NCBI GenBank assembly: GCA_902625885.1
Contig: CACODE010000004.1
Location: 40,751 to 104,750 of the forward strand
Length of the DNA stretch: 64,000 nt
Direction: 5' to 3'
Origin: an uncultured Candidatus Poseidoniales archaeon
GTDB taxonomy: Archaea; Thermoplasmatota; Poseidoniia; Poseidoniales; Poseidoniaceae
The first letter of the stretch is position 1. Each line of letters opens with the position of its first letter. The notes under the pieces are model-generated. The model did not search any database. It was not told the DNA's origin and was given only the letters and a program-made list of their open reading frames with translations. This document shows, piece after piece, positions 18,058-55,586 of this stretch. Made by a program: the position numbers and the translations under genes.

Positions 18058-18213
18058 TCCCTCCAAATCACGCCAACGGCCCCTTTGCCATGAACATTCG
18101 GTTGGCCCGTGGCTTGAGCGAGCTTCAAGACGCCGAGGACACAGTTGTGGATGGGAATCTCGTCGCAACCCTTTAGGAAGGGTGGCTTAAGCAACCCTTG
18201 GAAGGGAGAGGTC

Positions 18214-19845: not shown

Positions 19846-19857
19846 GGTGATTACGTC

Positions 19858-34881: not shown

Positions 34882-36513
34882 TCAGCCGAGGAAACCGTAG
34901 GTCCAATCGTGGGGCGGTGCAAACGTCTCTTTGATCGAGCGAGGGCTGACCCAGCGCAAGAGGTTCAGCGGACTGCCCGCCTTGTCGTTCGTACCGCTGC
35001 CCCGTGCCCCGCCAAACGGCTGCTGACCGACCACGGCGCCCGTGGGTTTGTCGTTGATGTAGAAGTTGCCGGCACTGTACCGAAGAGCGGCCACGGCCGT
35101 TTCGATGTGGCGGCGGTCGGTGGCAAAGATGGAACCTGTCAGGGCGTATTCTGAAGTCGAGTCGCACAAGGTCAACGTGGCTTCGAAGTCGTCGTCAGCG
35201 TACACGTGAACCGAGAGCACCGGCCCAAAGATTTCCTCTTCCATGGTCTCGCTCTTGGGGTTGTGGCACACGATGGTGGTTGGCTGAATGAAGTAGCCAG
35301 TACTGTCGTCGTACGTGCCCCCGGTGACAATATCGCACTCCGGATCAGCAGCGGCGCGATCGATGTAGCCTGTGATGCTGTCGAAGGCTTTCTTGTCGAT
35401 AACAGCGCCGAGGAAGTTCCCGAAATCGGCGACATCCCCGACGGTGATTTTGTTCACCTCGGCGATGTAGTCGTCCTTGATGGCCTCCCACACCGAGTGA
35501 GGGACGTAAACCCGGCTGGCTGCACTGCATTTTTGGCCTTGGAATTCAAACCCGCCACGAAGCATGGCCACCAGCAAGGCTTGTCGGTCGCAATCCGGGT
35601 GGGCCACGATGAAATCTTTTCCACCCGTTTCTCCGACGATTCTGGGGTAGGATTTCATGTTCTCCAAATTGTTGGCAACGTCTCGCCACATCTGACGGAA
35701 CACACGCGTTGAACCTGTAAAGTGAATACCTGCTAACTCCCTGTGCTGGAGGCATGTATCGCCCACCACTGCCGCTCGCCCTGGGACGAAATTGATGACG
35801 CCAGCGGGCAGGCCTGCGTCCATCATCAGGCGCATCAATCGGTAGTTCGACACGTAGGAGTTTCTCGACGGTTTCCACACCCCGACGTTACCCATGATGG
35901 CGGCACTGGAAGGCAGGTTGGCCGCAATGCTCGAGAAATTGAACGGCGTGACAGAGAACACGAAACCTTCGAGCGGTCTTACTTCACTGGAATTCCACAT
36001 GGATGAGGGGGAGATGGGTGGTTGAAGGTCTTCGTAGATTTGGCGTGCGTAGTCGGCGTTGAAACGCCAGAAGTCGATCAGTTCGCAGGCCGAGTCAATC
36101 TCGGCCTGGTGGCAGGTTTTGGACTGGTTCAGCATGGTGGAGGCGTTGACTTCAGCCCTTCGCGGCCCCCTGAGCAACTCGCTGGCTTTGAGGAAGATGG
36201 CAGCACGAGCCTGCCAGGGCATGGTGGACCACATTTCGTGGGCCTCTAGGGCGGCATCGATGGCAGCGTTGACTTCCTTTTGTCCAGCCATGTGGACTTT
36301 GGCTATCACGTGGCCGTGGTTGTGCGGCATTACCTGCTCAACAACATCACCGGTAAACACTTCCTCGCCGTTGATGATGCACGGAATTTCAAGCACCTCA
36401 GCGGACTGACGCTTGAGTTCAGCTTCAAGTTCAGCGCGTTCTTTGCTGCCCGGCAGGTAGCCAAGGACGGGCTCGTTAACGGGGGTGGGTGGCTTGGGTA
36501 TGCTGTTCACCAT
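34882..36513 (-). CDS. pruA: 1-pyrroline-5-carboxylate (L-glutamate gamma-semialdehyde) dehydrogenase
   Basis: 'MVNSIPKPPTPVNEPVLGYLPGSKERAELEAEL' N-terminus, ALDH motifs 'ETGGKD' and 'EFQGQKCSAASR'. The tracked ORF has a low-complexity 138-aa extension that I reject. Confidence 0.85.
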   Translation of the reverse strand: MVNSIPKPPTPVNEPVLGYLPGSKERAELEAELKRQSAEVLEIPCIINGEEVFTGDVVEQVMPHNHGHVIAKVHMAGQKEVNAAIDAALEAHEMWSTMPWQARAAIFLKASELLRGPRRAEVNASTMLNQSKTCHQAEIDSACELIDFWRFNADYARQIYEDLQPPISPSSMWNSSEVRPLEGFVFSVTPFNFSSIAANLPSSAAIMGNVGVWKPSRNSYVSNYRLMRLMMDAGLPAGVINFVPGRAAVVGDTCLQHRELAGIHFTGSTRVFRQMWRDVANNLENMKSYPRIVGETGGKDFIVAHPDCDRQALLVAMLRGGFEFQGQKCSAASRVYVPHSVWEAIKDDYIAEVNKITVGDVADFGNFLGAVIDKKAFDSITGYIDRAAADPECDIVTGGTYDDSTGYFIQPTTIVCHNPKSETMEEEIFGPVLSVHVYADDDFEATLTLCDSTSEYALTGSIFATDRRHIETAVAALRYSAGNFYINDKPTGAVVGQQPFGGARGSGTNDKAGSPLNLLRWVSPRSIKETFAPPHDWTYGFLG

Positions 36514-36568
36514 GCGACAGCGTCGTCTCGGCGACCCTTGAACATCACCCATCCCATCTATGACGGTC

Positions 36569-37090
36569 TCAGAGGTAAAGGTGAGCGTGCTTGGCGCGAA
36601 CTTTGGCGATTTTTGGACCGACGACAGCCATGCAGTAGCCTTGATAGGGATTTCGAGCGTAGTAGTCGTGGTGTTTCTTTTCGGCAATGAGGAAATGGAC
36701 GGGTTCCTCGATGGTGGTGACGATGGGGTCGTCGTAGACGTTGCCCATGTCGGCAATCGTCGCCTCGGCCGTCGCCCGTTGGTCTTCTGAGAGTGGCATG
36801 ATGCAGGAACGGTATTGCGTGCCGATGTCGTTACCTTGACGGTTGAGTTGGGTCGGGTCGTGGACGGTGAAGAACACCTCAAGGAGGGTCTCAAAAGAAA
36901 CAATGGTTGGGTCAAATTGAACCTCAACCACTTCAGCGTGCCCGGTTGTGCCGCTGCAAACAGCTTCGTAAGTCGGGTGAGGGTCGTGGCCCCCAGCGTA
37001 GGCAGGTAGCGCCGATTCTACACCTTTGATTTGCTTGTAAGCGCCCTCCACGCACCAGAAGCATCCGCCACCAACAATCATTCGTTCCAT
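36569..37090 (-). CDS. msrA: peptide-methionine (S)-S-oxide reductase
   Basis: 'GGGCFWCVEGAY' active-site motif, 173 aa. Confidence 0.9.
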   Translation of the reverse strand: MERMIVGGGCFWCVEGAYKQIKGVESALPAYAGGHDPHPTYEAVCSGTTGHAEVVEVQFDPTIVSFETLLEVFFTVHDPTQLNRQGNDIGTQYRSCIMPLSEDQRATAEATIADMGNVYDDPIVTTIEEPVHFLIAEKKHHDYYARNPYQGYCMAVVGPKIAKVRAKHAHLYL

Positions 37091-37141
37091 GGTTGTACCT
37101 ATAGGGTGGTCTCATTTGAAGGTTTGATTCAGACACTAGGC

Positions 37142-37546
37142 CTAATTTTCCCAAGATGAGGTCGTCTGATCGTCCAGGACCACGACACCGATGATATCCG
37201 TTTTTTGGTTTTTACTTTGGAATACGTACATCGCACTTCCATGAAAATAGGGCTCGCCTCCACGATTTATCCTGTGGAAATCAACCAGAAGCGTTCCGGT
37301 GTTCTCTGATACGCTCGTGAAATCAAGGTTATTCAAACGGCTGGCAACATACCCATCGGCGTCCAGTGAGCCACGCAGCAATGAGAATCCATCCAAGAGT
37401 TCTTTTCTGTTTTCAAAAATGCTGGTCCCCGATGGTGATGAAGCAAAAAACGGTGTTCTGCATGTGTCTGCAATAGTAACGTAGTCCTTGTCTTCAAACG
37501 CCCGTATGTATTTCATGTACTGGTCCATTACCTGTTGTTCGTCCAT
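37142..37546 (-). CDS. NTF2/SnoaL-like small protein (hypothetical), low-GC
   Basis: 134 aa. Size and alternating pattern fit an NTF2-like fold. A hand-counted 100-nt sample is about 44% GC. Confidence 0.45.
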   Translation of the reverse strand: MDEQQVMDQYMKYIRAFEDKDYVTIADTCRTPFFASSPSGTSIFENRKELLDGFSLLRGSLDADGYVASRLNNLDFTSVSENTGTLLVDFHRINRGGEPYFHGSAMYVFQSKNQKTDIIGVVVLDDQTTSSWEN

Positions 37547-37565
37547 GAAACCTTTCCCAAGGTGG

Positions 37566-37577
37566 CCGTTATAGAGG
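37566..37577. promoter_or_regulatory. TATA-like element in the divergent island promoter region
   Basis: 'CCGTTATAGAGG'. On the minus strand, 'CTCTATAACG' is centred about 26 nt from the ATG at 37546, which is leaderless-type spacing. It is also about 19 nt upstream of the ATG at 37591 on the plus strand. Confidence 0.25.
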
Positions 37578-37590
37578 CATCGGAGAACAT

Positions 37591-37719
37591 ATGGCCACCA
37601 ATTTGAGGAGAGCGCTATATGATGGTGAAGGATGCCGGCGTCCTCAATACCTACAAGAGGTTGACAAAGAAATGAAGAAGTTAAACCTCTTGGTTAACAT
37701 GAGGACGGTTGGTGAATGA
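37591..37719 (+). CDS. candidate 42-codon upstream ORF coupled to the 390-aa gene
   Basis: Hand translation gives MATNLRRALYDGEGCRRPQYLQEVDKEMKKLNLLVNMRTVGE*. Its TGA (37717-37719) overlaps the ATG (37716-37718) of the next gene as ATGA. Confidence 0.2.
   Translation: MATNLRRALYDGEGCRRPQYLQEVDKEMKKLNLLVNMRTVGE
37654..37692. repeat. 9-bp perfect inverted repeat CAAGAGGTT-n21-AACCTCTTG upstream of the island operon
   Basis: Read directly from the sequence. It lies inside the candidate uORF, 24-62 nt upstream of the ATG at 37716. Confidence 0.6.
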
Positions 37720-38888
37720 GCGCGGTAGATTCTCCCCGGGAATTGCCCTATGCCTCCGTGGATATCCTCAACGGAATTGAAATCAAGATTGGCGAGGGTT
37801 GGATTAAATTTTCTTACCCACTGGCTAAGGGCATTGAGAGAATAGAAATCAGTTGTGCTTGGATTGAGTCAAACCCAGCAGATAGAATCGGTATCTGGGT
37901 AGGTCTGTCTGACGAAAGAGTCCCGCAAACGCTTACCGCATGGGGTAATGGCCATGCTATTGGATTGGAATCCTATGGTGAAAACTCACCAATCGTAGAT
38001 GTAGAACGCTGGGAATTTGGAAAGTCCGCCAAATTGATTGTTGAAACGAAACAACAAGAGATGAAATTGAACGTTTACCTTCTCTGCCGCCCTCGATTGG
38101 ATGATTTGAAAAGATCACTTGAGATTACCATTGATGAGTATTCTGCAATAAACGGGATGAAACCAGAAAATTCAGAAACAAGGGTATACGAATTTCAGCG
38201 AGCAGAAAAAAGCCCTATGATGAGGACAACAATATCGAAACTCGAGGAGTTGGGTTCACTAAATTACACAGGGATTGGAAACGTCATCCATCCCAAACAA
38301 ATTCTTACGCTCAAGGCGCTTCAGCACCTCCTCAGAAAGAAGATGCTCAACGATGAAAAATCATTTTCTGTCGCTTACGTTGGGACAGACACCCTTGAGA
38401 ACCTAACCAGCATCATTCGATGGCTCGAATCAAAGGGATTGTATGGACAGATCACAGAAATCAAGGCATATACTTACGACGATTGGGATGACAAACTCCA
38501 AGATCTGCTCGATGATTTGGTTCCTGTAAATATTGGAAACGACTCAAAAGTAGACCTTGTGCCGAACAATGAATCACAAAGGGCCGATGCTTCCAGCCAC
38601 GATGTTGTCATCACTACTTATGTGTGCCCTTGGATAAAAAAAGACGATAGGGATGACTTCCAGGCGCTCATTGACAAACTCGTAGGTCCGAATTCCGTGC
38701 TTATCTCTGTTGACCCCAAAACTGCGTTAAACTCAGTTAGGAGTCCAATTTTTAATTCCAATGAGTACAATCCTCAGTCAATATACAAGGGAGAAGATGG
38801 ACTTGAATTAAGCAATCTTAAGACGTTCAAATTCCACGCTGCAGAGGCAATAATCTACAAACGAAAAAAGGGGTGGGTGATGAGATGA
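37716..38888 (+). CDS. hypothetical protein (390 aa), first large gene of the low-GC island operon
   Basis: Long ORF with A/T-rich codon third positions. No motif I can assign. The C-terminal half has an alternating beta-alpha pattern ('FSVAYVGTD...','HDVVITTYV','NSVLISVDP') vaguely like a Rossmann/methyltransferase fold. Confidence 0.6.
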   Translation: MSAVDSPRELPYASVDILNGIEIKIGEGWIKFSYPLAKGIERIEISCAWIESNPADRIGIWVGLSDERVPQTLTAWGNGHAIGLESYGENSPIVDVERWEFGKSAKLIVETKQQEMKLNVYLLCRPRLDDLKRSLEITIDEYSAINGMKPENSETRVYEFQRAEKSPMMRTTISKLEELGSLNYTGIGNVIHPKQILTLKALQHLLRKKMLNDEKSFSVAYVGTDTLENLTSIIRWLESKGLYGQITEIKAYTYDDWDDKLQDLLDDLVPVNIGNDSKVDLVPNNESQRADASSHDVVITTYVCPWIKKDDRDDFQALIDKLVGPNSVLISVDPKTALNSVRSPIFNSNEYNPQSIYKGEDGLELSNLKTFKFHAAEAIIYKRKKGWVMR

Positions 38889-41800
38889 AAACCTTGCCCT
38901 CTCAATCCCAATCAGAGACAGCAAATGGTGTCCGTAGTTTTCACACAAACTCAGTTCGAGCTATCTCCGACAGGGTGCGCAGCATGATCTCCCCCCAGCC
39001 TACTGCAATTTTTTACGATGAGATTGTTCATCAACTCGGTTCAGTTGAGCCTGACACGATTGAGTATTTTATCCGAGTCTGCAATATCGTCTGTAAGATC
39101 AAATCACAGAATACATTAAGAACAGAAAATTTGATTCAACTCGCCGATTATGACTCTAGAGCGTTAGATGAATTCGAAACGTTTGTACTCTCTAGTCCGG
39201 AGATTAAAAACAGGAAATTTAAACACAACTTGGCGAGGGTTTTCCGTGATGTTCTTCCTAAGCGAGAACTTAGTAGATTTAACGAACTCACAACAAATAT
39301 TGGAAACTCAGAATTACGCCCTCCACCCACGGTAGATCAGTACGCCCTAGCTGAGGATGAGATAAAAACGCCTCCTTCAATTCGTAGAAGAAGTACAAGT
39401 TCAGCAAAAGTAGGGGATGATCTGCTAAGTTGGTTAACAGAATCTTCCATCCCCCTCGAATTGCTGTGTATGTTTTTCCACGATCTTGCCAAGCCAGAAC
39501 CACGGGGAGAAATGGGATTTCTAAGATTCCTTTGCCGTTCCTCAGTTATCGTGTTGGGACAAAAACAGTATTCCAATGCACCCAGCACCGCGGTCCGAGG
39601 ATCATCTGAACTAATTCTTGTTTGTTCAGAATCAGAATTTTATGCGAACAGAGAGAAATATTCTCAGTTCGTAGTTCTTAATTGTAAAAACTCTGATGAG
39701 TTTTTGGCTCTCCACAATGAGAGGTTTTCATCTACCTATGAGCGATACATCACTTCGCTGTCAAATGCAACGATGTTTGGAAAATGTGGCTCGAAAGTTA
39801 CGCGTATCGACAAACTCTACTCTACTCGTAATTTTTTTCCGGTGAAAACTCAGGGTGATAAGAACAATCTGACGACGGTATCCCCTGAATCCATTGATGA
39901 AATCAATTCAAACCGTGGAAGCAAAGAAGTAGAACTAGAGGAAAAACTCTGGGAAGAATTGGAGCAGGCAAGGGGTATGGGGGTGGACTCAGTGCGTCTC
40001 GCAGAAGCGCTTCATAATGTGGGTAAGCATGTGAGAAACCAAACATCAGATGACACCGTTGCAGACGAATTATTCGATGAATGCTTGAAGGTTTCAAAAC
40101 GAATTAACTATATCGAAGGGGAAGCAAAGGCGTTGAACAGCTTGGGCATCTCCGCAAAAAATCGACAAGACTACGCTTCTGCAAGGATCTATTACAACGC
40201 CAGTTGTAATCTAATGGAGGATTGCTCTAACTATGAAGGATTATCAAAATCGCTTGTGAATCTTGGTATTTTGGAACAGGGTGTCGGCCGATTTGGGGAT
40301 GCCCGGGCCTATTTCAGACGTGCAATTAACATGAAGGAAAAACATGGCTTGAATGTTAGTCCCGCCCTTTACTCTAGACTTGATGTTGTATCTGGCGCAG
40401 GAAGCGGAATCAATCCAAACCGCCGTGCTCCTCCATCTCGCACCAGTGCAAATACCTTCAGACAACTTCTCGGACAACGCTCAGAGATTTTTGTGTTACG
40501 AGGAGATGCAGGTTCGGGAAAAAGTATTGCAATGGTCCAATTTGCCAACCACTACATCACTGCCATTGAACAAAAGATGGATGATAATTCATGGGATCAT
40601 AACGATATTGTTATCCCTATTTTCTTGAAATCCCGTCATCTTGATATTAAATGGGGATCGTGGAAAAATGGCTTGGGAGACACTGCAATTGAGGTTGAGG
40701 GGCCGTTGAGTCCGAGCGTCATAACAGATGGTATACTGCGCTCAAACCCAAGTCTGCAGGATCAACTTTCTGCAAGTGAACTTACCAATTTTTTCGAGTT
40801 CCTTGAAGCGGCAGGTGAATATCTCAACATTCGTTTTCTAATCTTCGGGGACGCGGTTGATGAAATCCCAGATGAACATCAGCGAGGTGTATTTTGTGAG
40901 TGGGTTCGCTCCATGAGCAAGCAAAAACATTCTGAGATTTATCTTGCGGTGAGACCCGGTTTCCCTGAGGTGGAACAACTCGCAACAAACGATCAAATCG
41001 TTGACCTGGAAATCCCTGTTGATGTTCTCAAAAATGAAATGCCAAACATGTTATGCCGTGCATGGGGCATCTCCGAAGAATTGGCTGACGTATACCAAGA
41101 ACGTTTTGAGGAGTTTGAGGAACTGTTAACCCATCCGCTCTACGTGGGATGGTTTTGTTTCCTTCTCTACTCCAACGAACTCACGGACGATATTGTAGGC
41201 ACTGCAACAGAGAAGAAACATGCAGTGATTCAACGTATTGTTGAGATCGGCATTGATTCTGCACTTGATCGGCGCGAGAGTCCGTTGGCGAATCTTGACC
41301 CAGTCAAACGAAAGGAATTTCATAAGAAAGTACGCCAATTCATCGCTCTTGCCCATCACAGCCCGAGTGAACCCGCAGTGAAATCATATTTTGACAAATT
41401 AGAGAAATTGACCGATTACTCGTTTACAGAGGATGAAAAACATGCCATTCAGCATGATTGCGGCATCCTCTTCCTCGCAGATAATGGACTGGTTTGGACG
41501 CACCATACCGTTCCAGAAATCATCTATGCGGACCACATTCATGAACTTTGGAATGGAGATTTGAACCCGTCGTTGATGGCTGGTAAGCCCCGAATATCCA
41601 CCCCCTTTATCCAGCGGTTGAGCTCGCTTCGTGGGTCGACAAAACTCGAAATCGCTCGCGAACTTCTCGAATATCCCTCAATAACCAAATCAGACGCAGA
41701 TGTTCTTTTCTCAATTGCAGACAGATTTGATTGGTCCGGAAACGAACTTTATCTAGATGAACATGGCGTTTCTGACGTCCCTTTGCTGGATGTTAGACCG

Positions 41801-42895
41801 AATAAGGATGTTATCAAAGATGCTCTGAATAAGATATTCTTCGTGAATCAATTTGAAATTTCATCTGAGAAGGTGCCTGAGGACCTGAGTGTTTTTTGGC
41901 AGTACAGAGTTGATTGCGCAATGCTCCTTGCAGAATTACTGAATCTCGGATTCCGTTCTCCTTTGGACGAAATTTGTATGACGAATGAAGCAATTTACGC
42001 ACTTGCAAATTTATCAGAAACGCTAGATTATTCTGATGTTTTCGATACCATTTCTTGGTATCATAGCATAATGACAGATGAAGAAGATGTGCAGGAACCG
42101 TGGGAAGACTTTGTACCTTGGAATGCAGAACTTCTTCTCAAGCGAGTAAAGAAAAATCCACTGTTGATTCATGATTTTGACAGCCTCATCCATCTCGTTG
42201 GAGTTCAACTAGACCATGGGGACCGATCGGTTGATAACGTCCGTCCATTGTTCAACCTACATCATGTTGAGCTGGCAGATTCCTTGCTTACCGGCAGCGA
42301 GAATGATTATTGTTGGAGTGCGTGGGGGATGCGTTCCCCATCAGCTAGCGAATACAATCTAACCATGCACTTTCTCTCTGAGGGGCATCAACAGGAATAT
42401 GATACAAAACATTATTTGCACAACAACCAAGTTTTTGTTTCCAGATCATCGCTGGCTCAAAATCTCAGTTTGAGAGAGAATGAAGAACGCATTTTTGACG
42501 GGTTAAGGCGTTCGATCGTGGAGATTGTTTTCGGAAACCTCTACGGTAAAAACTGGGAGAACAAGGTAGAGGAATTGTATGGTTTGGTAAAAGACCAATC
42601 CGAATCAATAAACAAATTGTATGATGAGATGTTCTGTGTTGCGTACGATGACTTCTTTTTCTACTACAATGACAATCCACCTGATGTCATTTGGATTGGA
42701 CACGAATTCTATGAAACAAGCATCGAAAAGAAAGGGATTTCACTCATTCCGTTCGTTGCTTACGCTATCGGGAATGTCGATGGTGACATTCGGAATCAAT
42801 TTTACGAAGATAGCCACGATGTAGCAATTGATTTTGTTCTTGATGCAGGGAAGAGTGCTGTCAACAGATTCCGATATCCGTCAACTCGAAAATAG
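38885..42895 (+). CDS. giant STAND NTPase: unknown N-domain + TPR repeats + NACHT-type P-loop + ~600-aa helical C-terminal region
   Basis: Walker A 'VLRGDAGSGKSIAM', Walker B 'IRFLIFGDAVDEIPD' (NACHT-like DGxDE) and 'IYLAVRPGF' (TSRP-like). TPR-like repeats lie upstream ('EAKALNSLGISAKNRQDYASARIYYNASCNL...SKSLVNLGILEQGVGRFGDARAYFRRAINM'). The ATG at 38885 overlaps the upstream TGA as ATGA; an alternative GTG is at 38873. Confidence 0.7.
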   Translation: MKTLPSQSQSETANGVRSFHTNSVRAISDRVRSMISPQPTAIFYDEIVHQLGSVEPDTIEYFIRVCNIVCKIKSQNTLRTENLIQLADYDSRALDEFETFVLSSPEIKNRKFKHNLARVFRDVLPKRELSRFNELTTNIGNSELRPPPTVDQYALAEDEIKTPPSIRRRSTSSAKVGDDLLSWLTESSIPLELLCMFFHDLAKPEPRGEMGFLRFLCRSSVIVLGQKQYSNAPSTAVRGSSELILVCSESEFYANREKYSQFVVLNCKNSDEFLALHNERFSSTYERYITSLSNATMFGKCGSKVTRIDKLYSTRNFFPVKTQGDKNNLTTVSPESIDEINSNRGSKEVELEEKLWEELEQARGMGVDSVRLAEALHNVGKHVRNQTSDDTVADELFDECLKVSKRINYIEGEAKALNSLGISAKNRQDYASARIYYNASCNLMEDCSNYEGLSKSLVNLGILEQGVGRFGDARAYFRRAINMKEKHGLNVSPALYSRLDVVSGAGSGINPNRRAPPSRTSANTFRQLLGQRSEIFVLRGDAGSGKSIAMVQFANHYITAIEQKMDDNSWDHNDIVIPIFLKSRHLDIKWGSWKNGLGDTAIEVEGPLSPSVITDGILRSNPSLQDQLSASELTNFFEFLEAAGEYLNIRFLIFGDAVDEIPDEHQRGVFCEWVRSMSKQKHSEIYLAVRPGFPEVEQLATNDQIVDLEIPVDVLKNEMPNMLCRAWGISEELADVYQERFEEFEELLTHPLYVGWFCFLLYSNELTDDIVGTATEKKHAVIQRIVEIGIDSALDRRESPLANLDPVKRKEFHKKVRQFIALAHHSPSEPAVKSYFDKLEKLTDYSFTEDEKHAIQHDCGILFLADNGLVWTHHTVPEIIYADHIHELWNGDLNPSLMAGKPRISTPFIQRLSSLRGSTKLEIARELLEYPSITKSDADVLFSIADRFDWSGNELYLDEHGVSDVPLLDVRPNKDVIKDALNKIFFVNQFEISSEKVPEDLSVFWQYRVDCAMLLAELLNLGFRSPLDEICMTNEAIYALANLSETLDYSDVFDTISWYHSIMTDEEDVQEPWEDFVPWNAELLLKRVKKNPLLIHDFDSLIHLVGVQLDHGDRSVDNVRPLFNLHHVELADSLLTGSENDYCWSAWGMRSPSASEYNLTMHFLSEGHQQEYDTKHYLHNNQVFVSRSSLAQNLSLRENEERIFDGLRRSIVEIVFGNLYGKNWENKVEELYGLVKDQSESINKLYDEMFCVAYDDFFFYYNDNPPDVIWIGHEFYETSIEKKGISLIPFVAYAIGNVDGDIRNQFYEDSHDVAIDFVLDAGKSAVNRFRYPSTRK

Positions 42896-42923
42896 CATCT
42901 TTCGAATGAAGATTGCTCCTCGT

Positions 42924-42932
42924 GTTTGTTTT
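42924..42932 (+). terminator. oligo-T tract (TTTGTTTTT) about 30 nt after the NACHT gene stop
   Basis: Archaeal terminators are typically oligo-T. The tract lies in the 39-nt gap between the convergent genes. Confidence 0.3.
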
Positions 42933-42934
42933 TC

Positions 42935-44515
42935 TCACTGGTTCGCAGTTTCCAGCGTGCTCTGTCCGTAATCAAGCAAACTCTTCTGTGGATTTGGTTC
43001 GGCTTTTCCTTGCTGGTTCTGGCTTGTTTTCTGCCGCCTGAAGGTCCGTTTTTTCCGGCTGCCGTGAAGGGTGTACACCGCTTTCGATCGGGCTTTCACT
43101 CCTTCGTTACGCCGCGCTGCATACGCTTTTTTGATGCCAAGGTTGCGGGCCTCCGCCTCGTCGAGGATAGGAAGCGGGTAAGTCTCCCCAACGATGACGC
43201 CAGTCGTTTTTTGCATCGCTTCGCTCATCGTCCACGGTTCGTGAATTTGAGGTGTGGGCACCATCGCAAGCTCCGGCACCCACTTTCGGATGAAATCACC
43301 GTCTAGGTCGTGGTCAAGGGATTGTTTGAGGATGGAGTAGGCCCGCACGGCGTTGATGCCCGTGATGCCAGATTGCATGTGGATTTGCGACCAGTGGATG
43401 CCGGGCTCGTAATCGATGAACAACTTGGCCAGGTGAGTCCCGGTGCGTTGCCATGGCAACCAGAGCGTGTAGGCAGCAACGGACTGCATCATGGCCCGCA
43501 TTCTGAAATTGATCCACCCCGTGGCTTTCAGCGAACGCATGCATGCGTCAAAAAACGGCCATCCCGTCCTTCCTTCCGCCCATGCATGAAAATGTTCCTC
43601 AACACCTTGGCGTTCAAGGGCCGCGTCGAGTTCAGGATTGATGGATTGGACGTCCATCGTGGTTTCCATCTCAAGACGTTGAACGAAATGGCAACGCCAC
43701 GACACCCTTGAGGTGAAGGCGTTGATGTTTTTTCGGAAGGTTGCGGTGTCAACATCTGGGTTGTTTGCTACGGCCTTGTTCGCCTCCCGCAACCGTTGTT
43801 TCACTTGCCGGACGCTCAGGGCGCCGCAGGCGAGGTAGGCGGACAGGCGTGAGGAACCTTCTCGTGATGTTGCTGGGTTTGATATGGTGGGCAAGTAGTT
43901 GTCAAACCGGGTTTCCAAAAACGAGTCCAACCAAGCGTGCGCTGCCTTTTCCCCTGCTTCAAGCGGCGTGTTGACGAGGCCATGATGGTCCCGAGTGTTG
44001 GAAACGCTGTCAACGGAATCAAGCGAGGAGTGGGCAGGAAGGCTTCCTGGGGCCTCAAGAACCGGCATCACCATTCTTCGGTTGCGAAGCGTGTTCCAAC
44101 GGTCGCGGTTCAATAGCGCTCGAACAACGCCGTTGGAAGGGCATTGATGCCATACGATGCCGTTGACGTCGCACCAGCGCTGAACACGTTTGTCCCGCTC
44201 CCATGACCACATCAAACCTGTTTCCTGATGGCTGTACAGGCATGTGATAGGGCATTTTTGGTGAATGGCTGACAGCACTTCGGTGGGCTCGCCGGTAACG
44301 AGTTGCACGGTGCCTCCAAGTTCGTTGATGGAACGGGCGAGCGACCGGGCGTTGGCCAAGTCCCAAGCCAAGTGCAACGCAGAAACATCGGGCTGGTTGG
44401 CCCGCTCTGGCTCGTCGATGTAGAGACAGAGGACGTCGTCTTCGGCGCCATACGCCTCAACGAGGGGTGCGTGGTCAGCAAGGCGCAAATCGCGCTTGAA
44501 CCAGACCACTCGCAT
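42935..44515 (-). CDS. phr: cryptochrome/photolyase-family flavoprotein
   Basis: 'MRVVWFKRDLRLADHAPL' N-terminus and a C-terminal FAD-binding region ('...WINFRMRAM...IDYEPGIHWSQIHMQSG...'). Confidence 0.8.
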   Translation of the reverse strand: MRVVWFKRDLRLADHAPLVEAYGAEDDVLCLYIDEPERANQPDVSALHLAWDLANARSLARSINELGGTVQLVTGEPTEVLSAIHQKCPITCLYSHQETGLMWSWERDKRVQRWCDVNGIVWHQCPSNGVVRALLNRDRWNTLRNRRMVMPVLEAPGSLPAHSSLDSVDSVSNTRDHHGLVNTPLEAGEKAAHAWLDSFLETRFDNYLPTISNPATSREGSSRLSAYLACGALSVRQVKQRLREANKAVANNPDVDTATFRKNINAFTSRVSWRCHFVQRLEMETTMDVQSINPELDAALERQGVEEHFHAWAEGRTGWPFFDACMRSLKATGWINFRMRAMMQSVAAYTLWLPWQRTGTHLAKLFIDYEPGIHWSQIHMQSGITGINAVRAYSILKQSLDHDLDGDFIRKWVPELAMVPTPQIHEPWTMSEAMQKTTGVIVGETYPLPILDEAEARNLGIKKAYAARRNEGVKARSKAVYTLHGSRKKRTFRRQKTSQNQQGKAEPNPQKSLLDYGQSTLETANQ

Positions 44516-44595
44516 GCCAACACCTCATCGTCCGCCCTCATCAAGCGTTGTCACTTTGCCACCAGAACAATAGGCCCACCTCCTGATGCGTAACC

Positions 44596-46395
44596 ATGAA
44601 CAGGGACGTCATATGGCTCGTCGTTGTCCTTCTGTTGGGAGGAAGTTTGCTCACGATGATGGCGCAGGACCAAGAGGTGGCGGACGTCGAGCAGGAGGAG
44701 GAACAGACGGTTGAGGAAGAACAGTCTTGCGTGGTTGGCACGGAAAAAGTGTACAACGCTTCCGCTGCTTTGGGTTTTGATTGCGTGCCGCTCGACCCGC
44801 ACAAGCTCGCACACAACCACCCCGCACCGGTTCTGACGGTTTCGGACGTCATCGACGACGGGGCCGTTGTTGTTTTCATCGGCAGCATTGACCACTTGCA
44901 CCCCGAAGAAATCCTCGTCACAGCGACGTACGATGGCGACATGACGCTATCAACCCAACCAAACCTGCAGGGTCAATGGTCGATGACGGTGCGCACCAGC
45001 GCCGAAGAGCCGCTGCAGTTTTCCATAACGGCGAGACACCCTTCGGAAGGGACGTCGTCAGCCACCACGGTGGTCGATGTTGAGCGAACCTCCGACGATG
45101 ATGGTTCGTCCCCAGATGAGGAAGAGGGAGACGGTAATGGCAATGCTTCGGGCGGCGAGGCAGGGTCCGGAGAGAACAACAGCACCACCGGCAACCAATC
45201 ATCAGAAACAAACGCCACGGACGAGGGCAACGACCCCGAACCGGCGACACCGACCTACAACGCTTCCGACATGGGGTCATTTTGGCTCGATGTTTTCCGC
45301 TGCCAGCCGGGACAAAACATCACGCAGGTTGACGATTTGACCACGTCTGCCGTGGAAACTCACGAATGCTCGGTGAGCATCACGATGAACGAAACCCACA
45401 TCACCATCGTGGCCAACGGCCTGCCGGACCATGATTTCGAGTCTACCTTGGCTTGCTCACAAGGCAATGACTGCACGCGCGCCCAAAATTACGAATGGAC
45501 CGTTCCTCGCTCGCCGGTCAACGACACCACGGGCGGCCACGACGCCACGGATTGTCCCGAAGCCAACGGCGATTACGAATGCGCTCCCGCTCGCGGCGAG
45601 GTCGCCATCGCCATTAACGGCGTCCCGTTTTACGGTCCAGAGGACGGTCCGGGTGGCGATGCTGTAGCGAGTCAGCACGGCGCCTACGAGGAAGACCGGC
45701 AACCCATCGTCCTCGGCGTGTGCCACGCCCACAACGGCCAAGGCGGGACCTTCCACTACCACGCCGACGCCAACTGCCTTCACTGGCACCCCGAGGAGGG
45801 TGAAACCATGTTTGACTACGACACCAGCACGCCTGCCGCCGTAGCGCAAAACACCGCCAACGGTTCCCACTCTTCTGTGATCGGCGTTGGCATGGATGGC
45901 TACCCCATCTACGGCCTCTGGGGGTACGACAATGACATGAACATCGTTGAGATGAAGAGCTCTTACCGGTTGAAGTCGGGTGAGACGGGTTACAACGGCA
46001 TTGATGATTACGAGTTTGTTGCTGGTTTGGGTCATCTCGATGTTTGCAACGGACACTTTGGTCCAACCCCCGAATTTCCGGATGGTATCTACCATTATCA
46101 CTCGACCATGATGAACGGCGACGGGGCCATGGGCTTCCCCTATTTCCTGTTGTGCTATCACGGTGAAACCTTCCTCGATGAAAGTGGCAGCGGTGCTGAC
46201 TGTTCCGGATTTGGTGAAACGTGGGGTCCTGGCATTGCTCCGCCTCCGGAAGGCTGTGGTAACGGGGGCGGTGGCGGTCAAGGCGGACAGCTGTCGGAGG
46301 TTCGGGTCGTTTCTTCGCAAGCCTTCTCACCCCTTGCCATGGTGTGGATGTTGGCGTTTAGCTTGATGTTGCTGAGGCAGCGGCGAAGGTCATGA
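44596..46395 (+). CDS. secreted YHYH-domain protein with acidic S/D/E/N-rich linker and C-terminal TM anchor
   Basis: N-terminal TM/signal, then 'GGTFHYHADANC' and 'DGIYHYHSTMMNG' (YHYH motifs), ending 'PLAMVWMLAFSLMLLRQRRRS'. Confidence 0.55.
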   Translation: MNRDVIWLVVVLLLGGSLLTMMAQDQEVADVEQEEEQTVEEEQSCVVGTEKVYNASAALGFDCVPLDPHKLAHNHPAPVLTVSDVIDDGAVVVFIGSIDHLHPEEILVTATYDGDMTLSTQPNLQGQWSMTVRTSAEEPLQFSITARHPSEGTSSATTVVDVERTSDDDGSSPDEEEGDGNGNASGGEAGSGENNSTTGNQSSETNATDEGNDPEPATPTYNASDMGSFWLDVFRCQPGQNITQVDDLTTSAVETHECSVSITMNETHITIVANGLPDHDFESTLACSQGNDCTRAQNYEWTVPRSPVNDTTGGHDATDCPEANGDYECAPARGEVAIAINGVPFYGPEDGPGGDAVASQHGAYEEDRQPIVLGVCHAHNGQGGTFHYHADANCLHWHPEEGETMFDYDTSTPAAVAQNTANGSHSSVIGVGMDGYPIYGLWGYDNDMNIVEMKSSYRLKSGETGYNGIDDYEFVAGLGHLDVCNGHFGPTPEFPDGIYHYHSTMMNGDGAMGFPYFLLCYHGETFLDESGSGADCSGFGETWGPGIAPPPEGCGNGGGGGQGGQLSEVRVVSSQAFSPLAMVWMLAFSLMLLRQRRRS

Positions 46396-52304: not shown

Positions 52305-53194
52305 TCATCAGTGGAGCAACCGGTTCAATCGGCTCACAACTGATGGAGCGATTGTCGTCATTCCACGAGGTCGTCGGATTGGGCCGCGATGAAAGCAAAA
52401 TCAACTACATGGCCCGCCGTTTCACCATGAGTTCTTGCGACCTTGAGTCACAAGCATTCGAAACCATCGTTGCCTCGGCTGATTGTTTCATTCACTGCGC
52501 TGCGTTTGCTGCACCAAGAGGAAAAGCCGCACGTTTCCAAAAGAACGTTGACATCGTGAACGCCGTGATTCCGGTCCTGGAAGTCAACGATGTGTTCACG
52601 ATTTTCGTTTCATCCGCGTCGGTGTTTGACGGCATGCCTCGTGAAACGGCGTTGACCGACCCTTCGGCACGACCTCGGTCCTTGTATGCCAAATCAAAAT
52701 ACGACGCAGAACAAGCGGTGTTGAATTCGTCTTACAACAACTGGACCGGTCTTCGCCCACGAGCCGTCATCGGCAAGGGGGACAACACCGTAGCGCCGCG
52801 CCTTGATGCGCTGATCAGGGGCAACAAAATCCTCATCCCTGGAAAAGGCGATGCGCTGTTGGATTACACCTGCATGGAGAATTTCCTTGATTGCGTGGAG
52901 GCAACCATCGCTACTGGCGCTCAGCGGCGATTTTTCAACGTCAGCAACGGTGACCCAAGGCCGTTCAAAGAACTGGTGACGACCTACGCGAAACAGATTC
53001 ACAACATCACCGCCACCAAGCACGTACCTCTTTTACCGTTGAGAATAATGGCCAGCCTCTTTCCAACCGACAAAATCAACCACTATTCATTGGACCAAAT
53101 CAGCAAACCAATGGTCTTGGACCTGTCAGCGACCAAACGGGCTCTCACCTGGGAGCCAAAGCAAAGCCTGGAACAATGTTTGGAGGGGATGTGA
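52295..53194 (+). CDS. NAD(P)-dependent epimerase/dehydratase-family SDR
   Basis: 'ISGATGSIGSQL' (GxxGxxG) and 'YAKSKYDAE' (YxxxK). The GTG start overlaps the upstream gene by 10 nt. Confidence 0.7.
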   Translation: MRIVISGATGSIGSQLMERLSSFHEVVGLGRDESKINYMARRFTMSSCDLESQAFETIVASADCFIHCAAFAAPRGKAARFQKNVDIVNAVIPVLEVNDVFTIFVSSASVFDGMPRETALTDPSARPRSLYAKSKYDAEQAVLNSSYNNWTGLRPRAVIGKGDNTVAPRLDALIRGNKILIPGKGDALLDYTCMENFLDCVEATIATGAQRRFFNVSNGDPRPFKELVTTYAKQIHNITATKHVPLLPLRIMASLFPTDKINHYSLDQISKPMVLDLSATKRALTWEPKQSLEQCLEGM

Positions 53195-55510: not shown

Positions 55511-55586
55511 TGGTGGACGTGCCGAGATTTGAACTCGGGGCCTCTACCATGCCAAGGTAGCGATCTTCCAACTGATCTACACGCCC
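55511..55586 (-). tRNA. tRNA-Ala (anticodon GGC), CCA encoded
   Basis: The reverse complement folds as GGGCGTG-TA-GATC-AGTTGGAA-GATC-G-CTACC-TTGGCAT-GGTAG-AGGCC-CCGAG-TTCAAAT-CTCGG-CACGTCC-A-CCA. The G3:U70 Ala identity pair is present. Confidence 0.88.

What the first reader, a model, noticed from the sequence alone, without database searches (positions are those of the whole stretch)
37100..42935. Low-GC ~5.8 kb accessory island wedged between msrA and a photolyase gene
Hand counts of 100-nt samples give about 36% GC (near 39.1 kb) and about 44% (37.15 kb) inside the island. Flanking core genes give about 55% (19.86 kb) and about 58% (43.07 kb). Third codon positions switch from G/C-rich to A/T-rich exactly over the ORFs at 37142-42895. 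None of these ORFs has a housekeeping signature. The content is an NTF2-like gene, a possible uORF, a 390-aa unknown and a giant NACHT-type NTPase. This is the compositional and gene-content profile of a horizontally acquired defence or accessory island. I saw no integrase, flanking tRNA or direct repeats, so the acquisition mechanism is unclear.
Basis: seen in the sequence. Interest (0 to 1): 0.85.

Follow-up and report, generated by a model that had tools for sequence, protein, structure and literature searches.

The report
Strain-specific NLR-like gene island in archaeon
One strain of an uncultured marine archaeon carries a 5.8-kb piece of foreign, AT-rich DNA between two housekeeping genes; its main cargo is a previously undescribed gene pair (a methyltransferase-shaped protein plus a giant NLR-type molecular switch) that elsewhere sits among antiviral defence genes, so it is probably a new antiviral system.

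Summary
Window 37.1-42.9 kb is 43.6% GC against 55.1% elsewhere (z = -7.9), and GC3 drops by about 20 points. Ten of ten other metagenome contigs encoding the identical MsrA have phr and msrA 43 bp apart, so this is a strain-specific insertion in a Poseidoniales (Marine Group II) genome. No integrase, tRNA or flanking repeats are present.

The island is composite. Block A carries an NTF2-fold gene. It is shared with a second occupied variant of the site, which holds different cargo beyond it. Block B is a translationally coupled operon: a 390-aa protein (beta-sandwich plus class I methyltransferase fold) and a 1,336-aa NACHT-clade STAND NTPase with a TPR insert. Block B still carries the last 39 nt of a mutY gene. 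It therefore came from the "downstream of mutY" slot, where a 94%-identical copy sits in a 59%-GC archaeon and is equally AT-rich.

The pair is conserved in five or six lineages. In one lineage, two paralogous pairs apparently bracket a DISARM/GmrSD/methylase island. Both genes are under purifying selection, and the giant's N-terminal half is swapped between old alleles.

A defence function is inferred, not shown.

The parts
36569..37090 (-). msrA, the native flank on the left side of the insertion
   Evidence: Pfam PMSR E = 2.9e-57. The identical protein is found on 22 other contigs.
37113..37130 (-). Conserved 18-nt element 23-40 nt upstream of the msrA ATG. It is probably the native msrA promoter element, so the foreign DNA starts just beyond it.
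   Evidence: 100% match at the same distance from msrA in L101, L015 and L018.
37142..37546 (-). o134: 134-aa NTF2-like (KSI/SnoaL-fold) protein. It is the cargo of block A.
   Evidence: AF2 pLDDT 90.3. Foldseek against PDB gives TM 0.65-0.78 at probability 1.0. The family has 153 clusters at about 70% identity in marine Euryarchaeota. In other MGII lineages it sits in a fixed housekeeping neighbourhood. There is no Pfam hit.
37091..37590 (.). Block A: msrA-proximal spacer, o134, and about 44 bp of o134 upstream sequence. It is shared with a second occupied variant of the site (L101).
   Evidence: L101 aligns at 94.3% nt to window 35873-37588, then diverges into an epimerase-like, 42%-GC gene.
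37591..37664 (.). Unique junction between block A and block B. The 42-codon "uORF" (37591-37719) starts here.
   Evidence: No match in any of the 189 fetched loci. The uORF is not conserved in L109 or L011, where this position is mutY coding sequence in another frame.
37665..37715 (+). Remnant of the last 39 nt of a mutY-like gene (QRNEEV...) plus the 12-nt spacer that precedes the 390-aa gene. It is a scar showing where block B came from.
   Evidence: Alignment to L011 and L109, where a full HhH-GPD/MutY gene ends 12 nt before the 390-aa gene.
37716..38888 (+). o390: 390-aa protein with an N-terminal beta-sandwich (aa 8-163) and a C-terminal class I SAM-methyltransferase fold (aa about 188-383). 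Its motif I is non-canonical (AYVGTDTLENLT). It is the partner of the NTPase.
   Evidence: AF2 on a 7-sequence alignment gives pTM 0.78 and pLDDT 72.6. Foldseek against PDB gives 298 hits at E<=1e-3, with SAM-dependent methyltransferases dominating the top of the list. The viral library gives the same fold. A profile search against PDB sequences gives weak SAM-MTase hits, E = 0.03. The family has only 6 other clusters. It is always followed by a 1,092-1,340-aa gene. omega is 0.10-0.18.
38885..42895 (+). o1340: 1,336-aa NACHT-clade STAND NTPase. Its start codon overlaps the o390 stop codon (ATGA).
   Evidence: The ATGA overlap and a GGTGA SD-like motif are seen. The L109 gene call starts at the same Met. 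57 remote relatives align only to aa about 540-950. 30 of 38 relatives hit NPHP3_N and 26 of 38 hit NACHT. P0143 scores 32.7 bits on NACHT, above the 26.7-bit cut-off, on the aligned segment.
39776..39817 (+). Conserved N-terminal motif FGKCGSKVTRIDKL. It is a signature of this NACHT sub-clade and its function is unknown.
   Evidence: Invariant F, C, S, T, D, K and L in all five module giants. Present in 14 of 57 remote relatives, usually within the first 25 residues.
40124..40342 (+). TPR repeats, inserted between the N-terminal motif and the P-loop. Only the window, L109 and L011 versions have this insert.
   Evidence: Pfam TPR_12 E = 7.6e-10, 39.3 bits against a 30.1-bit cut-off. Absent from the L092, L095 and L102 giants.
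40451..41572 (+). NACHT nucleotide-binding/oligomerisation module. Motifs: Walker A GDAGSGKS (40502-40525), Walker B FGDAVDE, sensor-1 VRPG, LTHPLYVGWFCFL, and WTHHTVPE (winged-helix His).
   Evidence: Invariant columns in the 38-sequence and 5-sequence alignments. The protein's own Pfam hits are sub-threshold: NPHP3_N at 18.8 bits, AAA_16, nSTAND_NTPase5.
41570..42892 (+). C-terminal region of about 440 aa. It has no detectable relatives outside the five module lineages and is a candidate sensor or scaffold.
   Evidence: No hits beyond the 96% copy in 1.84 billion representatives. No PDB profile hit. 20-33% identity among module giants.
38863..40490 (+). Hyper-divergent segment of the giant gene. 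Alleles of the N-terminal half are exchanged by recombination.
   Evidence: Against L011 the DNA is unalignable, aa identity is 26-70% and synonymous sites are saturated, while the flanking parts are 96-100% identical at aa level. Against L109, dS is 0.32 here and 0.11 elsewhere, with omega about 0.2 throughout.
42896..42934 (.). 39-nt spacer between the giant's stop codon and the phr stop codon. Its origin is unknown.
   Evidence: No match in the empty site, L109 or any other locus.
42935..44515 (-). Photolyase gene (phr), the native flank on the right side of the insertion.
   Evidence: Pfam FAD_binding_7 E = 1e-58 and DNA_photolyase E = 1.5e-20. It is adjacent to msrA in L001-L010.

Best explanation
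Window 37.13-42.93 kb is a strain-specific, horizontally acquired insertion. It replaces the 43-bp phr-msrA spacer of a Poseidoniales (Marine Group II) archaeon.

It was assembled from at least two pieces.
- **Block A** is a single NTF2-fold gene. In other MGII lineages this gene is an ordinary conserved gene.
- **Block B** is a two-gene operon. It was lifted out of its usual position directly downstream of a mutY gene in another archaeon, and it took the last 39 nt of mutY with it.

No site-specific recombination machinery is involved. The most likely route is illegitimate joining followed by spread through homologous recombination in the conserved flanks. That step is inferred.

The operon encodes a methyltransferase-fold protein translationally coupled to a giant NACHT-clade STAND NTPase. 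The most likely function is an NLR-like antiviral defence system. All four steps of this model are inferred.
1. The giant protein senses an infection cue through its variable N-terminal/TPR half or its unique C-terminal region.
2. It switches nucleotide state and oligomerises.
3. It then activates an effector.
4. The best effector candidate is the tightly coupled methyltransferase-fold partner. The alternative is the giant's own N-terminal domain.

Shown:
- the composition anomaly
- the empty site
- the composite structure and the direction of transfer
- conservation of the gene pair
- NACHT-clade membership by transitive homology
- the methyltransferase fold
- purifying selection
- allele swapping
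- defence-island context in another lineage

Inferred:
- the defence function
- the sensing and effector roles
- the insertion mechanism
For: **Composition:**

**Empty site**
- 10 of 10 contigs with the identical MsrA have phr and msrA 43 bp apart.
- Homology stops exactly at the phr stop codon and the msrA start codon.
- Congeners have no cargo at this site.

**Host:** Poseidoniales.

**Composite structure**
- L101 shares only block A.
- L109 shares only block B, at 94.06% over 5,235 bp, window 37665-42893.
- The mutY remnant is shown.

**Operon conservation**
- The pair is present in the window, L109/L011, L095-L100, L092-L094, L102 and the P0016 contig.
- The two genes overlap or abut everywhere.

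**NACHT identity:**

**Methyltransferase fold:**

**Selection**
- omega is 0.1-0.2.
- The N-terminal half has saturated synonymous sites against L011, and a 3-fold higher dS against L109.

**Defence context**
- DrmA (E = 0), DrmB (3.5e-122), DrmC (1.8e-25), a DrmD-like fragment and a GmrSD/SspE-like DUF262 protein lie next to one pair.
- An N6/N4 and a C5 DNA methylase lie next to a paralogous pair, apparently on the same 29-kb scaffold.

**Composition in other hosts:** the pair is AT-richer than its host in backgrounds of 55%, 59%, about 51% and 38% GC.

**Decay:** copies are split in L099 and truncated in the clusters, which is typical of accessory defence genes.
Against: - No known defence family matches either protein. 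PADLOC gives only a TPR hit.
- The giant's own Pfam NTPase scores are below threshold.
- No recognisable nuclease, protease, TIR or other death effector is present.
- The methyltransferase-fold domain lacks the canonical GxGxG SAM loop and hits no Pfam methyltransferase model.
- In three contexts the pair sits 12-30 nt downstream of mutY on the same strand. In two lineages whose MutY is only 54-57% identical it occupies the same slot. This could mean a DNA-repair or DNA-modification role rather than immunity.
- Defence-island context is seen on essentially one scaffold family.
- The phr-side junction is seen only in this window.
- The host of L109 could not be placed beyond "archaeon with TBP".
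Confidence: 0.6

Rival explanations
1. The gene pair is not an immune system. It is a DNA-modification or DNA-repair accessory module. The methyltransferase-fold protein would modify DNA or a nucleotide, and the NACHT NTPase would act as a regulator or scaffold working with base-excision or photo-repair genes.
For: - The pair lies 12-30 nt downstream of a mutY-like glycosylase on the same strand in L109/L011 and in L095-L100. It sits in the same slot in two lineages whose MutY is only 54-57% identical.
- In the window it landed next to a photolyase.
- In L102 it is next to two DNA methylases.
- The partner has a methyltransferase fold.
Against: - In the window the pair is convergent with phr and has lost mutY, yet both genes stay intact under purifying selection.
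- It is absent from 10 of 10 conspecific contigs. A repair function of general value would not be so sporadic.
- The GC3 contrast with mutY in L109 (0.60 against 0.41-0.47) argues that it is not an old co-evolving operon partner.
- The DISARM/GmrSD context is immune.
- NACHT-clade STAND proteins of prokaryotes characterised so far are immune sensors (abstracts listed; PMC13581612).
Confidence: 0.15
2. The island is a remnant of an integrated mobile element (virus, plasmid, transposon or casposon-like). The element's mobility genes have been lost, and the gene pair is element cargo, for example for superinfection exclusion or addiction.
For: - AT-rich composition relative to every host.
- Composite structure with scars.
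- Sporadic distribution.
Against: - No integrase, transposase, terminal repeats, target duplication or tRNA.
- No similarity to IMG/VR viral contigs, GenBank phages or PLSDB plasmids at DNA or protein level.
- The mutY remnant shows the block was copied from a chromosomal slot, not from an element end.
Confidence: 0.1
3. The island is an assembly or binning artefact: a chimeric contig into which a low-GC fragment from another organism was spliced.
For: - The window appears to come from a metagenome-assembled genome.
- The phr-side junction and the block A/block B junction are seen only here.
Against: - Both flanks are collinear with one species, and the insert sits exactly in an intergenic spacer with every gene intact.
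- The msrA-o134 junction is independently present in a different sample, L101.
- The same gene pair forms an equally sharp low-GC island in a 256x-coverage contig of another archaeon.
- Chimeric joins do not normally restore the original synteny 5.8 kb later.
Confidence: 0.04
4. The block is a fast-evolving native (core) region rather than an acquisition.
For: None beyond the lack of mobility genes.
Against: - The site is empty in 10 of 10 conspecific contigs and in congeners.
- A 94%-identical copy sits in a different genomic slot of a different archaeon.
- The mutY scar shows the block came from elsewhere.
Confidence: 0.01

Closest known systems
Bacterial NLR-related NACHT proteins (bNACHT) and antiviral STAND NTPases (Avs)
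   Same: - A central NACHT-clade STAND NTPase with Walker A, Walker B, sensor-1 and winged-helix His motifs, in a protein of more than 1,000 aa.
- Repeat (TPR) content.
- Sporadic, horizontally transferred distribution.
- Location in defence islands in another lineage.
- Rapidly diversifying non-NTPase parts.
   Different: - No PADLOC model matches.
- The TPRs are inserted N-terminal to the NTPase instead of forming a C-terminal sensor, and most family members lack them.
- There is no recognisable effector domain.
- The protein is obligatorily paired and translationally coupled with a methyltransferase-fold protein. The characterised single-gene bNACHT/Avs systems do not have this (my knowledge, plus no mention of methyltransferase in PMC13581612).
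- The hosts are uncultured marine archaea.
Methylase-containing multi-gene defence systems with large NTPases (DISARM, BREX)
   Same: - A methyltransferase-type protein is encoded next to a very large P-loop NTPase.
- The pair sits physically beside a DISARM locus in L092/L102.
   Different: - The NTPase here is a STAND/NACHT switch, not a helicase or a BrxC-type ATPase.
- The methyltransferase-fold protein matches no DNA-methylase model and lacks the GxGxG loop and a DPPY-type motif.
- The system has only two genes.
Flexible (strain-specific) genomic islands of marine prokaryotes, exchanged by homologous recombination in conserved flanks
   Same: - Presence/absence and cargo polymorphism at one locus within a species: empty, window type and L101 type.
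- No integrase, tRNA or att sites.
- A mosaic pattern of flank divergence.
- Atypical composition.
   Different: - The island is small (5.8 kb).
- It is demonstrably stitched from two sources, with a scar that identifies the source slot. This level of traceability is unusual.
NTF2-like superfamily (ketosteroid isomerase / SnoaL / CaMKII-hub fold), for o134
   Same: An alpha+beta cone fold, TM 0.65-0.78 to many solved members.
   Different: - No sequence-family (Pfam/NCBIfam) match.
- The catalytic or ligand function is unknown.
- It is a conserved MGII-specific family.

Membership tests
NACHT-clade STAND NTPase (o1340) | Walker A GxxGxGK[ST] and Walker B hhhhDxxDE in a P-loop core | tested here: met
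   GDAGSGKS and LIFGDAVDE are present. G, G, G, K, D, D and E are invariant in the 38-sequence alignment.
NACHT-clade STAND NTPase (o1340) | The protein itself scores above the curated threshold of a NACHT-type Pfam model | tested here: not met
   NPHP3_N scores 18.8 bits (cut-off 24.8), AAA_16 19.2 (32.6) and nSTAND_NTPase5 17.4 (34).
NACHT-clade STAND NTPase (o1340) | Homology of the NTPase module to proteins that do pass the NACHT threshold, on the same segment | tested here: met
   - phmmer E = 8e-50 to P0143, whose residues 481-655 score 32.7 bits on NACHT (cut-off 26.7).
- P0160 scores 37.3 bits.
- 26 of 38 relatives hit NACHT and 30 of 38 hit NPHP3_N at E<=1e-3.
NACHT-clade STAND NTPase (o1340) | STAND-specific helical and winged-helix modules after the P-loop core, with a conserved sensor-1 Arg and a winged-helix His | tested here: inconclusive
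   The invariant motifs R(PG), THPLYVGWFC and WTHxTxPE lie at the expected spacing. They were assigned by analogy. No structure model of this part could be made.
NACHT-clade STAND NTPase (o1340) | Nucleotide-dependent oligomerisation | not testable with these tools
   Requires biochemistry or cryo-EM.
Known anti-phage STAND systems (Avs1-5, bNACHT and other PADLOC families) | Match to a curated defence-system model | tested here: not met
   PADLOC gives only a generic TPR hit for o1340. It gives no hit for the L092, L095 and L102 giants or for any 390-aa partner.
Known anti-phage STAND systems (Avs1-5, bNACHT and other PADLOC families) | Enrichment next to known defence genes | tested here: inconclusive
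   - Met on the L092/L093/L094 and L102 scaffolds, which carry DISARM, a GmrSD-like gene and two methylases.
- Not met in the window or in the mutY-slot contexts.
- There are too few independent contexts for statistics.
Known anti-phage STAND systems (Avs1-5, bNACHT and other PADLOC families) | Protection against virus infection | not testable with these tools
   Requires heterologous expression and infection assays.
Class I SAM-dependent methyltransferase (o390, C-terminal domain) | Seven-stranded Rossmann-like methyltransferase fold | tested here: met
   - The AF2 model has pTM 0.78.
- Foldseek against PDB gives 298 hits at E<=1e-3. The top 27, and most of the top 50, are SAM-dependent methyltransferases at probability 1.0, with TM to small methyltransferases of about 0.5.
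- The viral library gives the same result.
Class I SAM-dependent methyltransferase (o390, C-terminal domain) | Sequence match to a methyltransferase family model | tested here: not met
   No Pfam, NCBIfam or PADLOC hit. A profile search against PDB gives only E = 0.03-0.05 to a SAM-dependent methyltransferase.
Class I SAM-dependent methyltransferase (o390, C-terminal domain) | Glycine-rich motif I (GxGxG) after strand 1, and an acidic residue after strand 2 | tested here: inconclusive
   - Motif I is replaced by the invariant AY(I/V)GxDTxENLT.
- An acidic cluster with an invariant W-D follows strand 2.
- An invariant TYVxP(W/F) follows strand 4.
Class I SAM-dependent methyltransferase (o390, C-terminal domain) | SAM binding and methyl transfer | not testable with these tools
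   Requires biochemistry.
NTF2-like superfamily (o134) | Alpha+beta cone fold | tested here: met
   pLDDT is 90.3. There are 645 PDB matches at E<=1e-3, and the top matches are KSI, SnoaL, SgcJ and CaMKII-hub structures with TM 0.65-0.78.
Site-specifically integrated mobile element | Integrase or transposase gene | tested here: not met
   The island holds only three ORFs of at least 120 aa, and none has such a domain.
Site-specifically integrated mobile element | Flanking tRNA gene or direct repeats (att) / target-site duplication | tested here: not met
   The nearest tRNA is at 55.5 kb. No repeat pairs the two boundaries. The 43-bp spacer is replaced, not duplicated.
Strain-variable (flexible) genomic island | Presence/absence polymorphism among conspecific genomes, with conserved flanks | tested here: met
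   - Ten contigs have the empty site, with flanks 88-100% identical.
- One alternative occupied state exists, L101.

The most novel reading that the evidence does not exclude
The pair is a new type of archaeal NLR-like immune system. In it, a NACHT sensor/switch controls a separate methyltransferase-fold enzyme as its effector, for example by modifying nucleic acid or a metabolite on infection. Recognition specificity is renewed by swapping whole N-terminal cassettes between long-maintained alleles. The system also stays AT-rich in every host because it circulates as a pan-lineage mobile allele pool.
Probability: 0.3. Interest if true: 0.75.

Novelty: new variant of a known kind. Interest (0 to 1): 0.55.

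Why it matters
Marine Group II archaea are among the most abundant archaea in the surface ocean. They are uncultured, and almost nothing is known about how they resist their viruses.

This finding gives three things:
- A cleanly documented recent gene transfer in a natural MGII population. The empty site, the source slot and the scar are all visible.
- A candidate defence system that curated defence databases do not recognise. It couples an NLR-type switch to a methyltransferase-shaped partner.
- An example of cassette-like allele exchange in the putative sensor half.

If the pair is shown to be antiviral, it would add an effector logic (STAND plus a separate methyltransferase-fold enzyme) to the prokaryotic NLR repertoire, and it would extend that repertoire into planktonic archaea.

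If the pair is instead repair-related, the repeated linkage to mutY would be the interesting part.

The island as such is an ordinary kind of object.

Tried and rejected
- **Exact-protein look-ups of phr, o390 and o134:** not on record.
- **JGI metagenome scan with o390 and IMG/VR scan with o1340:** nothing.
- **GenBank phage and PLSDB plasmid searches, DNA and protein:** nothing.
- **PDB sequence and profile searches for o1340 (whole, N-terminal, NOD, C-terminal) and o134:** only TPR or generic P-loop noise.
- **"Low-GC donor genome" idea, held at first:** I inferred from L011 and L095 that the pair is native to a lineage of about 44% GC. L109 showed that the host there is about 59% GC and the pair is an island there too, so I rejected this.
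- **SNP-sharing test in the first 200 bp of msrA:** I looked for co-transfer of flank with block A and found no clear signal.
- **Flank identity profiles:** they hint at a recombination breakpoint about 400 bp inside phr relative to L005, but do not prove a mechanism.
- **MsrA-anchored JGI scan for more site states:** only two close contigs, both without cargo.
- **Taxonomic placement of L109's host by comparison with 1.4 Mb of fetched Poseidoniales loci:** failed.
- **Literature searches on MGII defence and on NACHT plus methyltransferase:** nothing specific.
- **First o134-L101 dN/dS attempt:** it used a wrong frame and is discarded.
- **Sigma-70 promoter scan:** not run, because the host is an archaeon.

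Full report
**Observation**

The compositional anomaly is real and sharp.
- Positions 37100-42935 have 43.6% GC, against 55.1% for the rest of the window.
- This is the lowest 5.8-kb stretch in the window, 7.9 standard deviations below non-overlapping stretches of the same length.
- At 200-nt resolution GC falls from 0.555 to 0.455 between 36.9 and 37.3 kb. It rises from 0.425 to 0.575 between 42.8 and 43.2 kb.
- Third-position GC is 0.51, 0.45 and 0.42 in the three island ORFs. It is 0.64-0.69 in the neighbouring genes.
- Tetranucleotide distance to the window background doubles over the island.
The flanks are msrA and a photolyase.
- No tRNA lies within 12 kb, no repeats bracket the island, and Rfam finds only three distant tRNAs.

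**The block is an insertion, and the host is a Marine Group II archaeon**

Photolyase relatives in reference genomes are all Poseidoniales/MGII MAGs. The best is only 70% identical, so the species itself has no representative there.

The exact MsrA protein occurs on 22 other metagenome contigs. In all 10 contigs shown, phr and msrA are adjacent with a 43-bp spacer. These contigs belong to the same species: the aldehyde dehydrogenase is 99-100% identical, phr is 93-98% identical, and flank nucleotide identity is 88-100%.

Homology to the empty site stops exactly at the phr stop codon and the msrA start codon. The spacer is replaced, and there is no target duplication.

Congeners have phr-msrA adjacent (L012, L013, L016) or have YHYH between them (L015, L017, L018, L110, L111). 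None carries cargo at this site.

**The island is composite**

*Block A.* A Tara contig, L101, matches the window at 94.3% from the aldehyde dehydrogenase through msrA and o134, up to window 37588. It then continues into different 42%-GC DNA encoding an epimerase/dehydratase fragment. So the site has at least three states in this population: empty, window type and L101 type. Block A (about 37131-37590) has its own history.

An 18-nt element lies 23-40 nt upstream of msrA (37113-37130). It is conserved at the same distance in L101, L015 and L018, so it is probably native msrA promoter sequence.

*Block B.* This block (37665-42893) matches a 36.7-kb, 256x-coverage contig, L109, at 94.06% over 5,235 bp. 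In L109 the same two genes lie 12 nt downstream of a full-length mutY-like gene (HhH-GPD). The surrounding genome is archaeal (it carries a TBP gene) and has 55-62% GC.

The window retains the last 39 nt of that mutY gene (QRNEEV...) and the 12-nt spacer, at 37665-37715. This scar fixes the direction of transfer: from a mutY-downstream slot into the phr/msrA site.

*Orphan pieces.* The 74 nt between the blocks and the 39 nt before phr match nothing in the fetched loci. It has no counterpart in L109 or L011, so it is not a feature.

**Low GC belongs to the gene pair, not to a donor genome**

| Locus | Host genes | Gene pair |
|---|---|---|
| L109 | GC3 0.60-0.76 | GC3 0.41-0.47 |
| L095 | GC 0.51-0.52 (flanks) | GC 0.43-0.45 |
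| L092 | GC 0.375-0.41 (defence-gene neighbours) | GC 0.34-0.35 |

I first read L011 and L095 as evidence for a native lineage of about 44% GC. L109 disproved that reading.

**Block A cargo: o134**

o134 has no family hit. It belongs to an abundant family of about 134 aa from marine Euryarchaeota, with 153 clusters at about 70% identity. In other MGII lineages it sits in a fixed housekeeping neighbourhood: RidA, a 108-aa gene, o134, DUF1295, AcnX and archaeosine TGT.

A confident model (pLDDT 90.3) has the NTF2-like cone fold, with TM 0.65-0.78 to KSI, SnoaL, SgcJ and CaMKII-hub structures. Its function is unknown, and nothing links it to the operon.

**Block B cargo: a conserved two-gene operon**

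*The small protein, o390.* It has only six other clusters among 5.8 billion proteins, at 31-50% identity. In every contig long enough to show it, a gene of 1,092-1,340 aa follows immediately. These are the window, L109, L011, L092-L094, L095-L098 (split in L099) and L102. Shorter contigs hold a truncated downstream gene, namely L100 and the P0016 contig.

The two genes overlap or abut everywhere. In the window and in L109 the stop and start codons share ATGA, and a GGTGA motif precedes them.

An AlphaFold model built from the seven-member alignment (pTM 0.78, pLDDT 72.6) shows two domains:
- an N-terminal beta-sandwich
- a C-terminal seven-stranded Rossmann domain

The Rossmann domain matches class I SAM-dependent methyltransferases. 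There are 298 PDB hits at E<=1e-3, and SAM methyltransferases dominate the top of the list. The viral structure library gives the same result. The family profile weakly hits a SAM methyltransferase by sequence, at E = 0.03.

The canonical GxGxG loop is replaced by an invariant AY(I/V)GxDTxENLT. Other invariant motifs (HPKQ, WD, TYVxP, SVDP, VRSPI, NPQ) suggest an active enzyme of unknown substrate.

*The giant, o1340.* It is 1,336 aa counted from ATG 38885.
- It has a significant TPR_12 hit and only sub-threshold P-loop hits.
- An exhaustive HMMER search with residues 501-1340 found 57 relatives. All align only to residues about 540-950.
- 30 of 38 relatives hit NPHP3_N and 26 of 38 hit NACHT.
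- The closest distinct relative, P0143, passes the NACHT gathering threshold at the start of the segment that aligns to o1340.
- Family alignments show Walker A, Walker B (DAxDE), a sensor-1 Arg, THPLYVGWFC and WTHxTxPE.

So the NTPase belongs to the NACHT clade of STAND by transitive homology and motifs.

The TPRs are an insertion specific to the window, L109 and L011 version. They lie between a clade-specific motif (FGxCxSKxTRIDKL) and the P-loop. The C-terminal region of about 440 aa has no relatives outside the module lineages. PADLOC recognises neither protein.

**Evolutionary behaviour**

Against L109, omega is 0.10 for o390 and about 0.2 for every segment of the giant. Both genes are therefore functional.

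However, dS is 0.32 in the giant's first 505 residues and 0.11 elsewhere.

Against L011 the contrast is extreme. L011 is the same lineage as L109, with the mutY region 98.7% identical.
- o390 and the giant's last 650 residues are 96-100% identical at protein level.
- The first 690 residues or so are 26-70% identical, with saturated synonymous sites and unalignable DNA.

This pattern indicates recombination between anciently diverged alleles of the N-terminal half. It does not indicate relaxed or positive selection on a recent copy.

Decayed copies also exist. The giant is split in L099, and clusters contain truncated members.

**Context elsewhere**

On Tara scaffolds L092 and L093, one pair lies next to a DUF262/GmrSD-SspE-like gene and a complete DISARM core: DrmA (E = 0), DrmB (3.5e-122), DrmC (1.8e-25) and a DrmD-like SNF2 fragment.

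A paralogous pair (L102) lies next to an N6/N4 and a C5 (DrmMII-like) methylase. Both o390 paralogues are recorded on a contig of the same length, 29,262 bp. The two pairs therefore apparently bracket one defence island.

In contrast, L109/L011 and L095-L100 share the mutY slot. Both flanks are homologous there, at 51-57% aa identity.

**Interpretation**

The best-supported reading is a strain-specific acquisition whose main cargo is a candidate NLR-like defence operon. Five observations fit immunity:
- NACHT-clade membership
- sporadic distribution
- AT-richness in every host
- cassette-like allele exchange
- DISARM/GmrSD neighbours

In the most economical model, the tight coupling to a methyltransferase-fold enzyme, together with the lack of any recognisable effector domain in the giant, makes o390 the effector or a co-sensor. 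This is inference only.

The main rival is a DNA-repair or DNA-modification accessory role, suggested by the repeated mutY linkage. I give it about 15%. Mobile-element remnant, assembly chimera and fast-evolving core gene are much less likely, for the reasons listed under the rival explanations.

The insertion mechanism remains open. There is no site-specific machinery, and scars sit at both internal joints. The flanks are mosaic, which is compatible with spread by homologous recombination.

**Comparison with known systems and novelty**

A 2026 systematic survey reports 589 prokaryotic STAND clades, 198 of them defence-associated. It does not mention methyltransferase partners (PMC13581612). 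Characterised bNACHT and Avs proteins are described as single proteins with fused effectors (abstracts listed, plus my own knowledge).

The island itself is an ordinary kind of object. The gene pair is a new variant of a known kind.

Noticed in passing
L092 1-15070 and L102 1-11411 (Tara scaffolds; apparently one 29,262-bp contig): The scaffold consists almost entirely of defence genes. Two paralogous 390-aa/giant pairs (31-35% identical to the window's o390) appear to bracket a DISARM locus. That locus holds DrmA, DrmB, DrmC and a DrmD-like gene, two DNA methylases, an unknown gene of more than 1,578 aa, a GmrSD/SspE-like DUF262 gene and a 180-aa gene with a faint Toprim hit.
   Followed up: partly
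L099 1571-5155; cluster members P0202, P0204-P0206, P0208: Several copies of the pair are decayed. The giant is split into 671 + 444 aa in L099. An 82.8-kb NCBI contig and a 3.4-kb contig carry truncated or split o390 and giant fragments. This suggests frequent loss of the system.
   Followed up: no
window 42935-46395 versus 34882-37090: Among conspecific empty-site contigs, the phr/YHYH side is clearly more divergent (88-97% nt) than the msrA/aldehyde-dehydrogenase side (96-100%). L005 is the exception: it is 98-100% identical on the phr side, apart from the 400 bp nearest the junction (93%). This is a recombination mosaic around the variable site.
   Followed up: partly
L015, L017, L018, L110, L111 versus window 42935-46395: In some congeners the YHYH surface-protein gene lies between phr and msrA instead of on the far side of phr. 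The phr-msrA neighbourhood is therefore rearranged within the genus even without foreign cargo.
   Followed up: no
L101 1-718: The alternative occupied state of the site carries a 42%-GC NAD-epimerase/GDP-mannose-dehydratase-like gene fragment upstream of o134. This hints at a sugar-modification (cell-surface) island in other strains. The contig is too short to see more.
   Followed up: no
window 54490-55419 (-) and tRNA-Ala 55511-55586 (-): A Cupin_8/JmjC-type hydroxylase gene sits in a mild GC dip (0.445 at 54.6-55.0 kb) directly beside a tRNA-Ala gene. The neighbouring 428-aa ORF (53176-54462) has no Pfam hit. This could be a small tRNA-associated accessory patch.
   Followed up: no
window 18145-22647: This is the highest-GC patch of the window (0.62 at 19-20 kb). 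It lies in a 566-aa protein with several zinc-ribbon hits. A 929-aa ResIII/DEAD-box helicase follows immediately.
   Followed up: no
window 60019-62020: Two adjacent ORFs (434 aa and 234 aa) have about 49-50% GC and no Pfam hit. They form a second, much weaker compositional dip.
   Followed up: no
L109 8987-9988 and L095 1-489: The GC of the mutY-like gene falls towards its 3' end, next to the inserted pair. In L109 its GC3 is 0.60, against 0.67-0.76 for the other host genes. In L095 its GC3 is 0.47. This suggests that recombination tracts from the AT-rich module extend into mutY.
   Followed up: no
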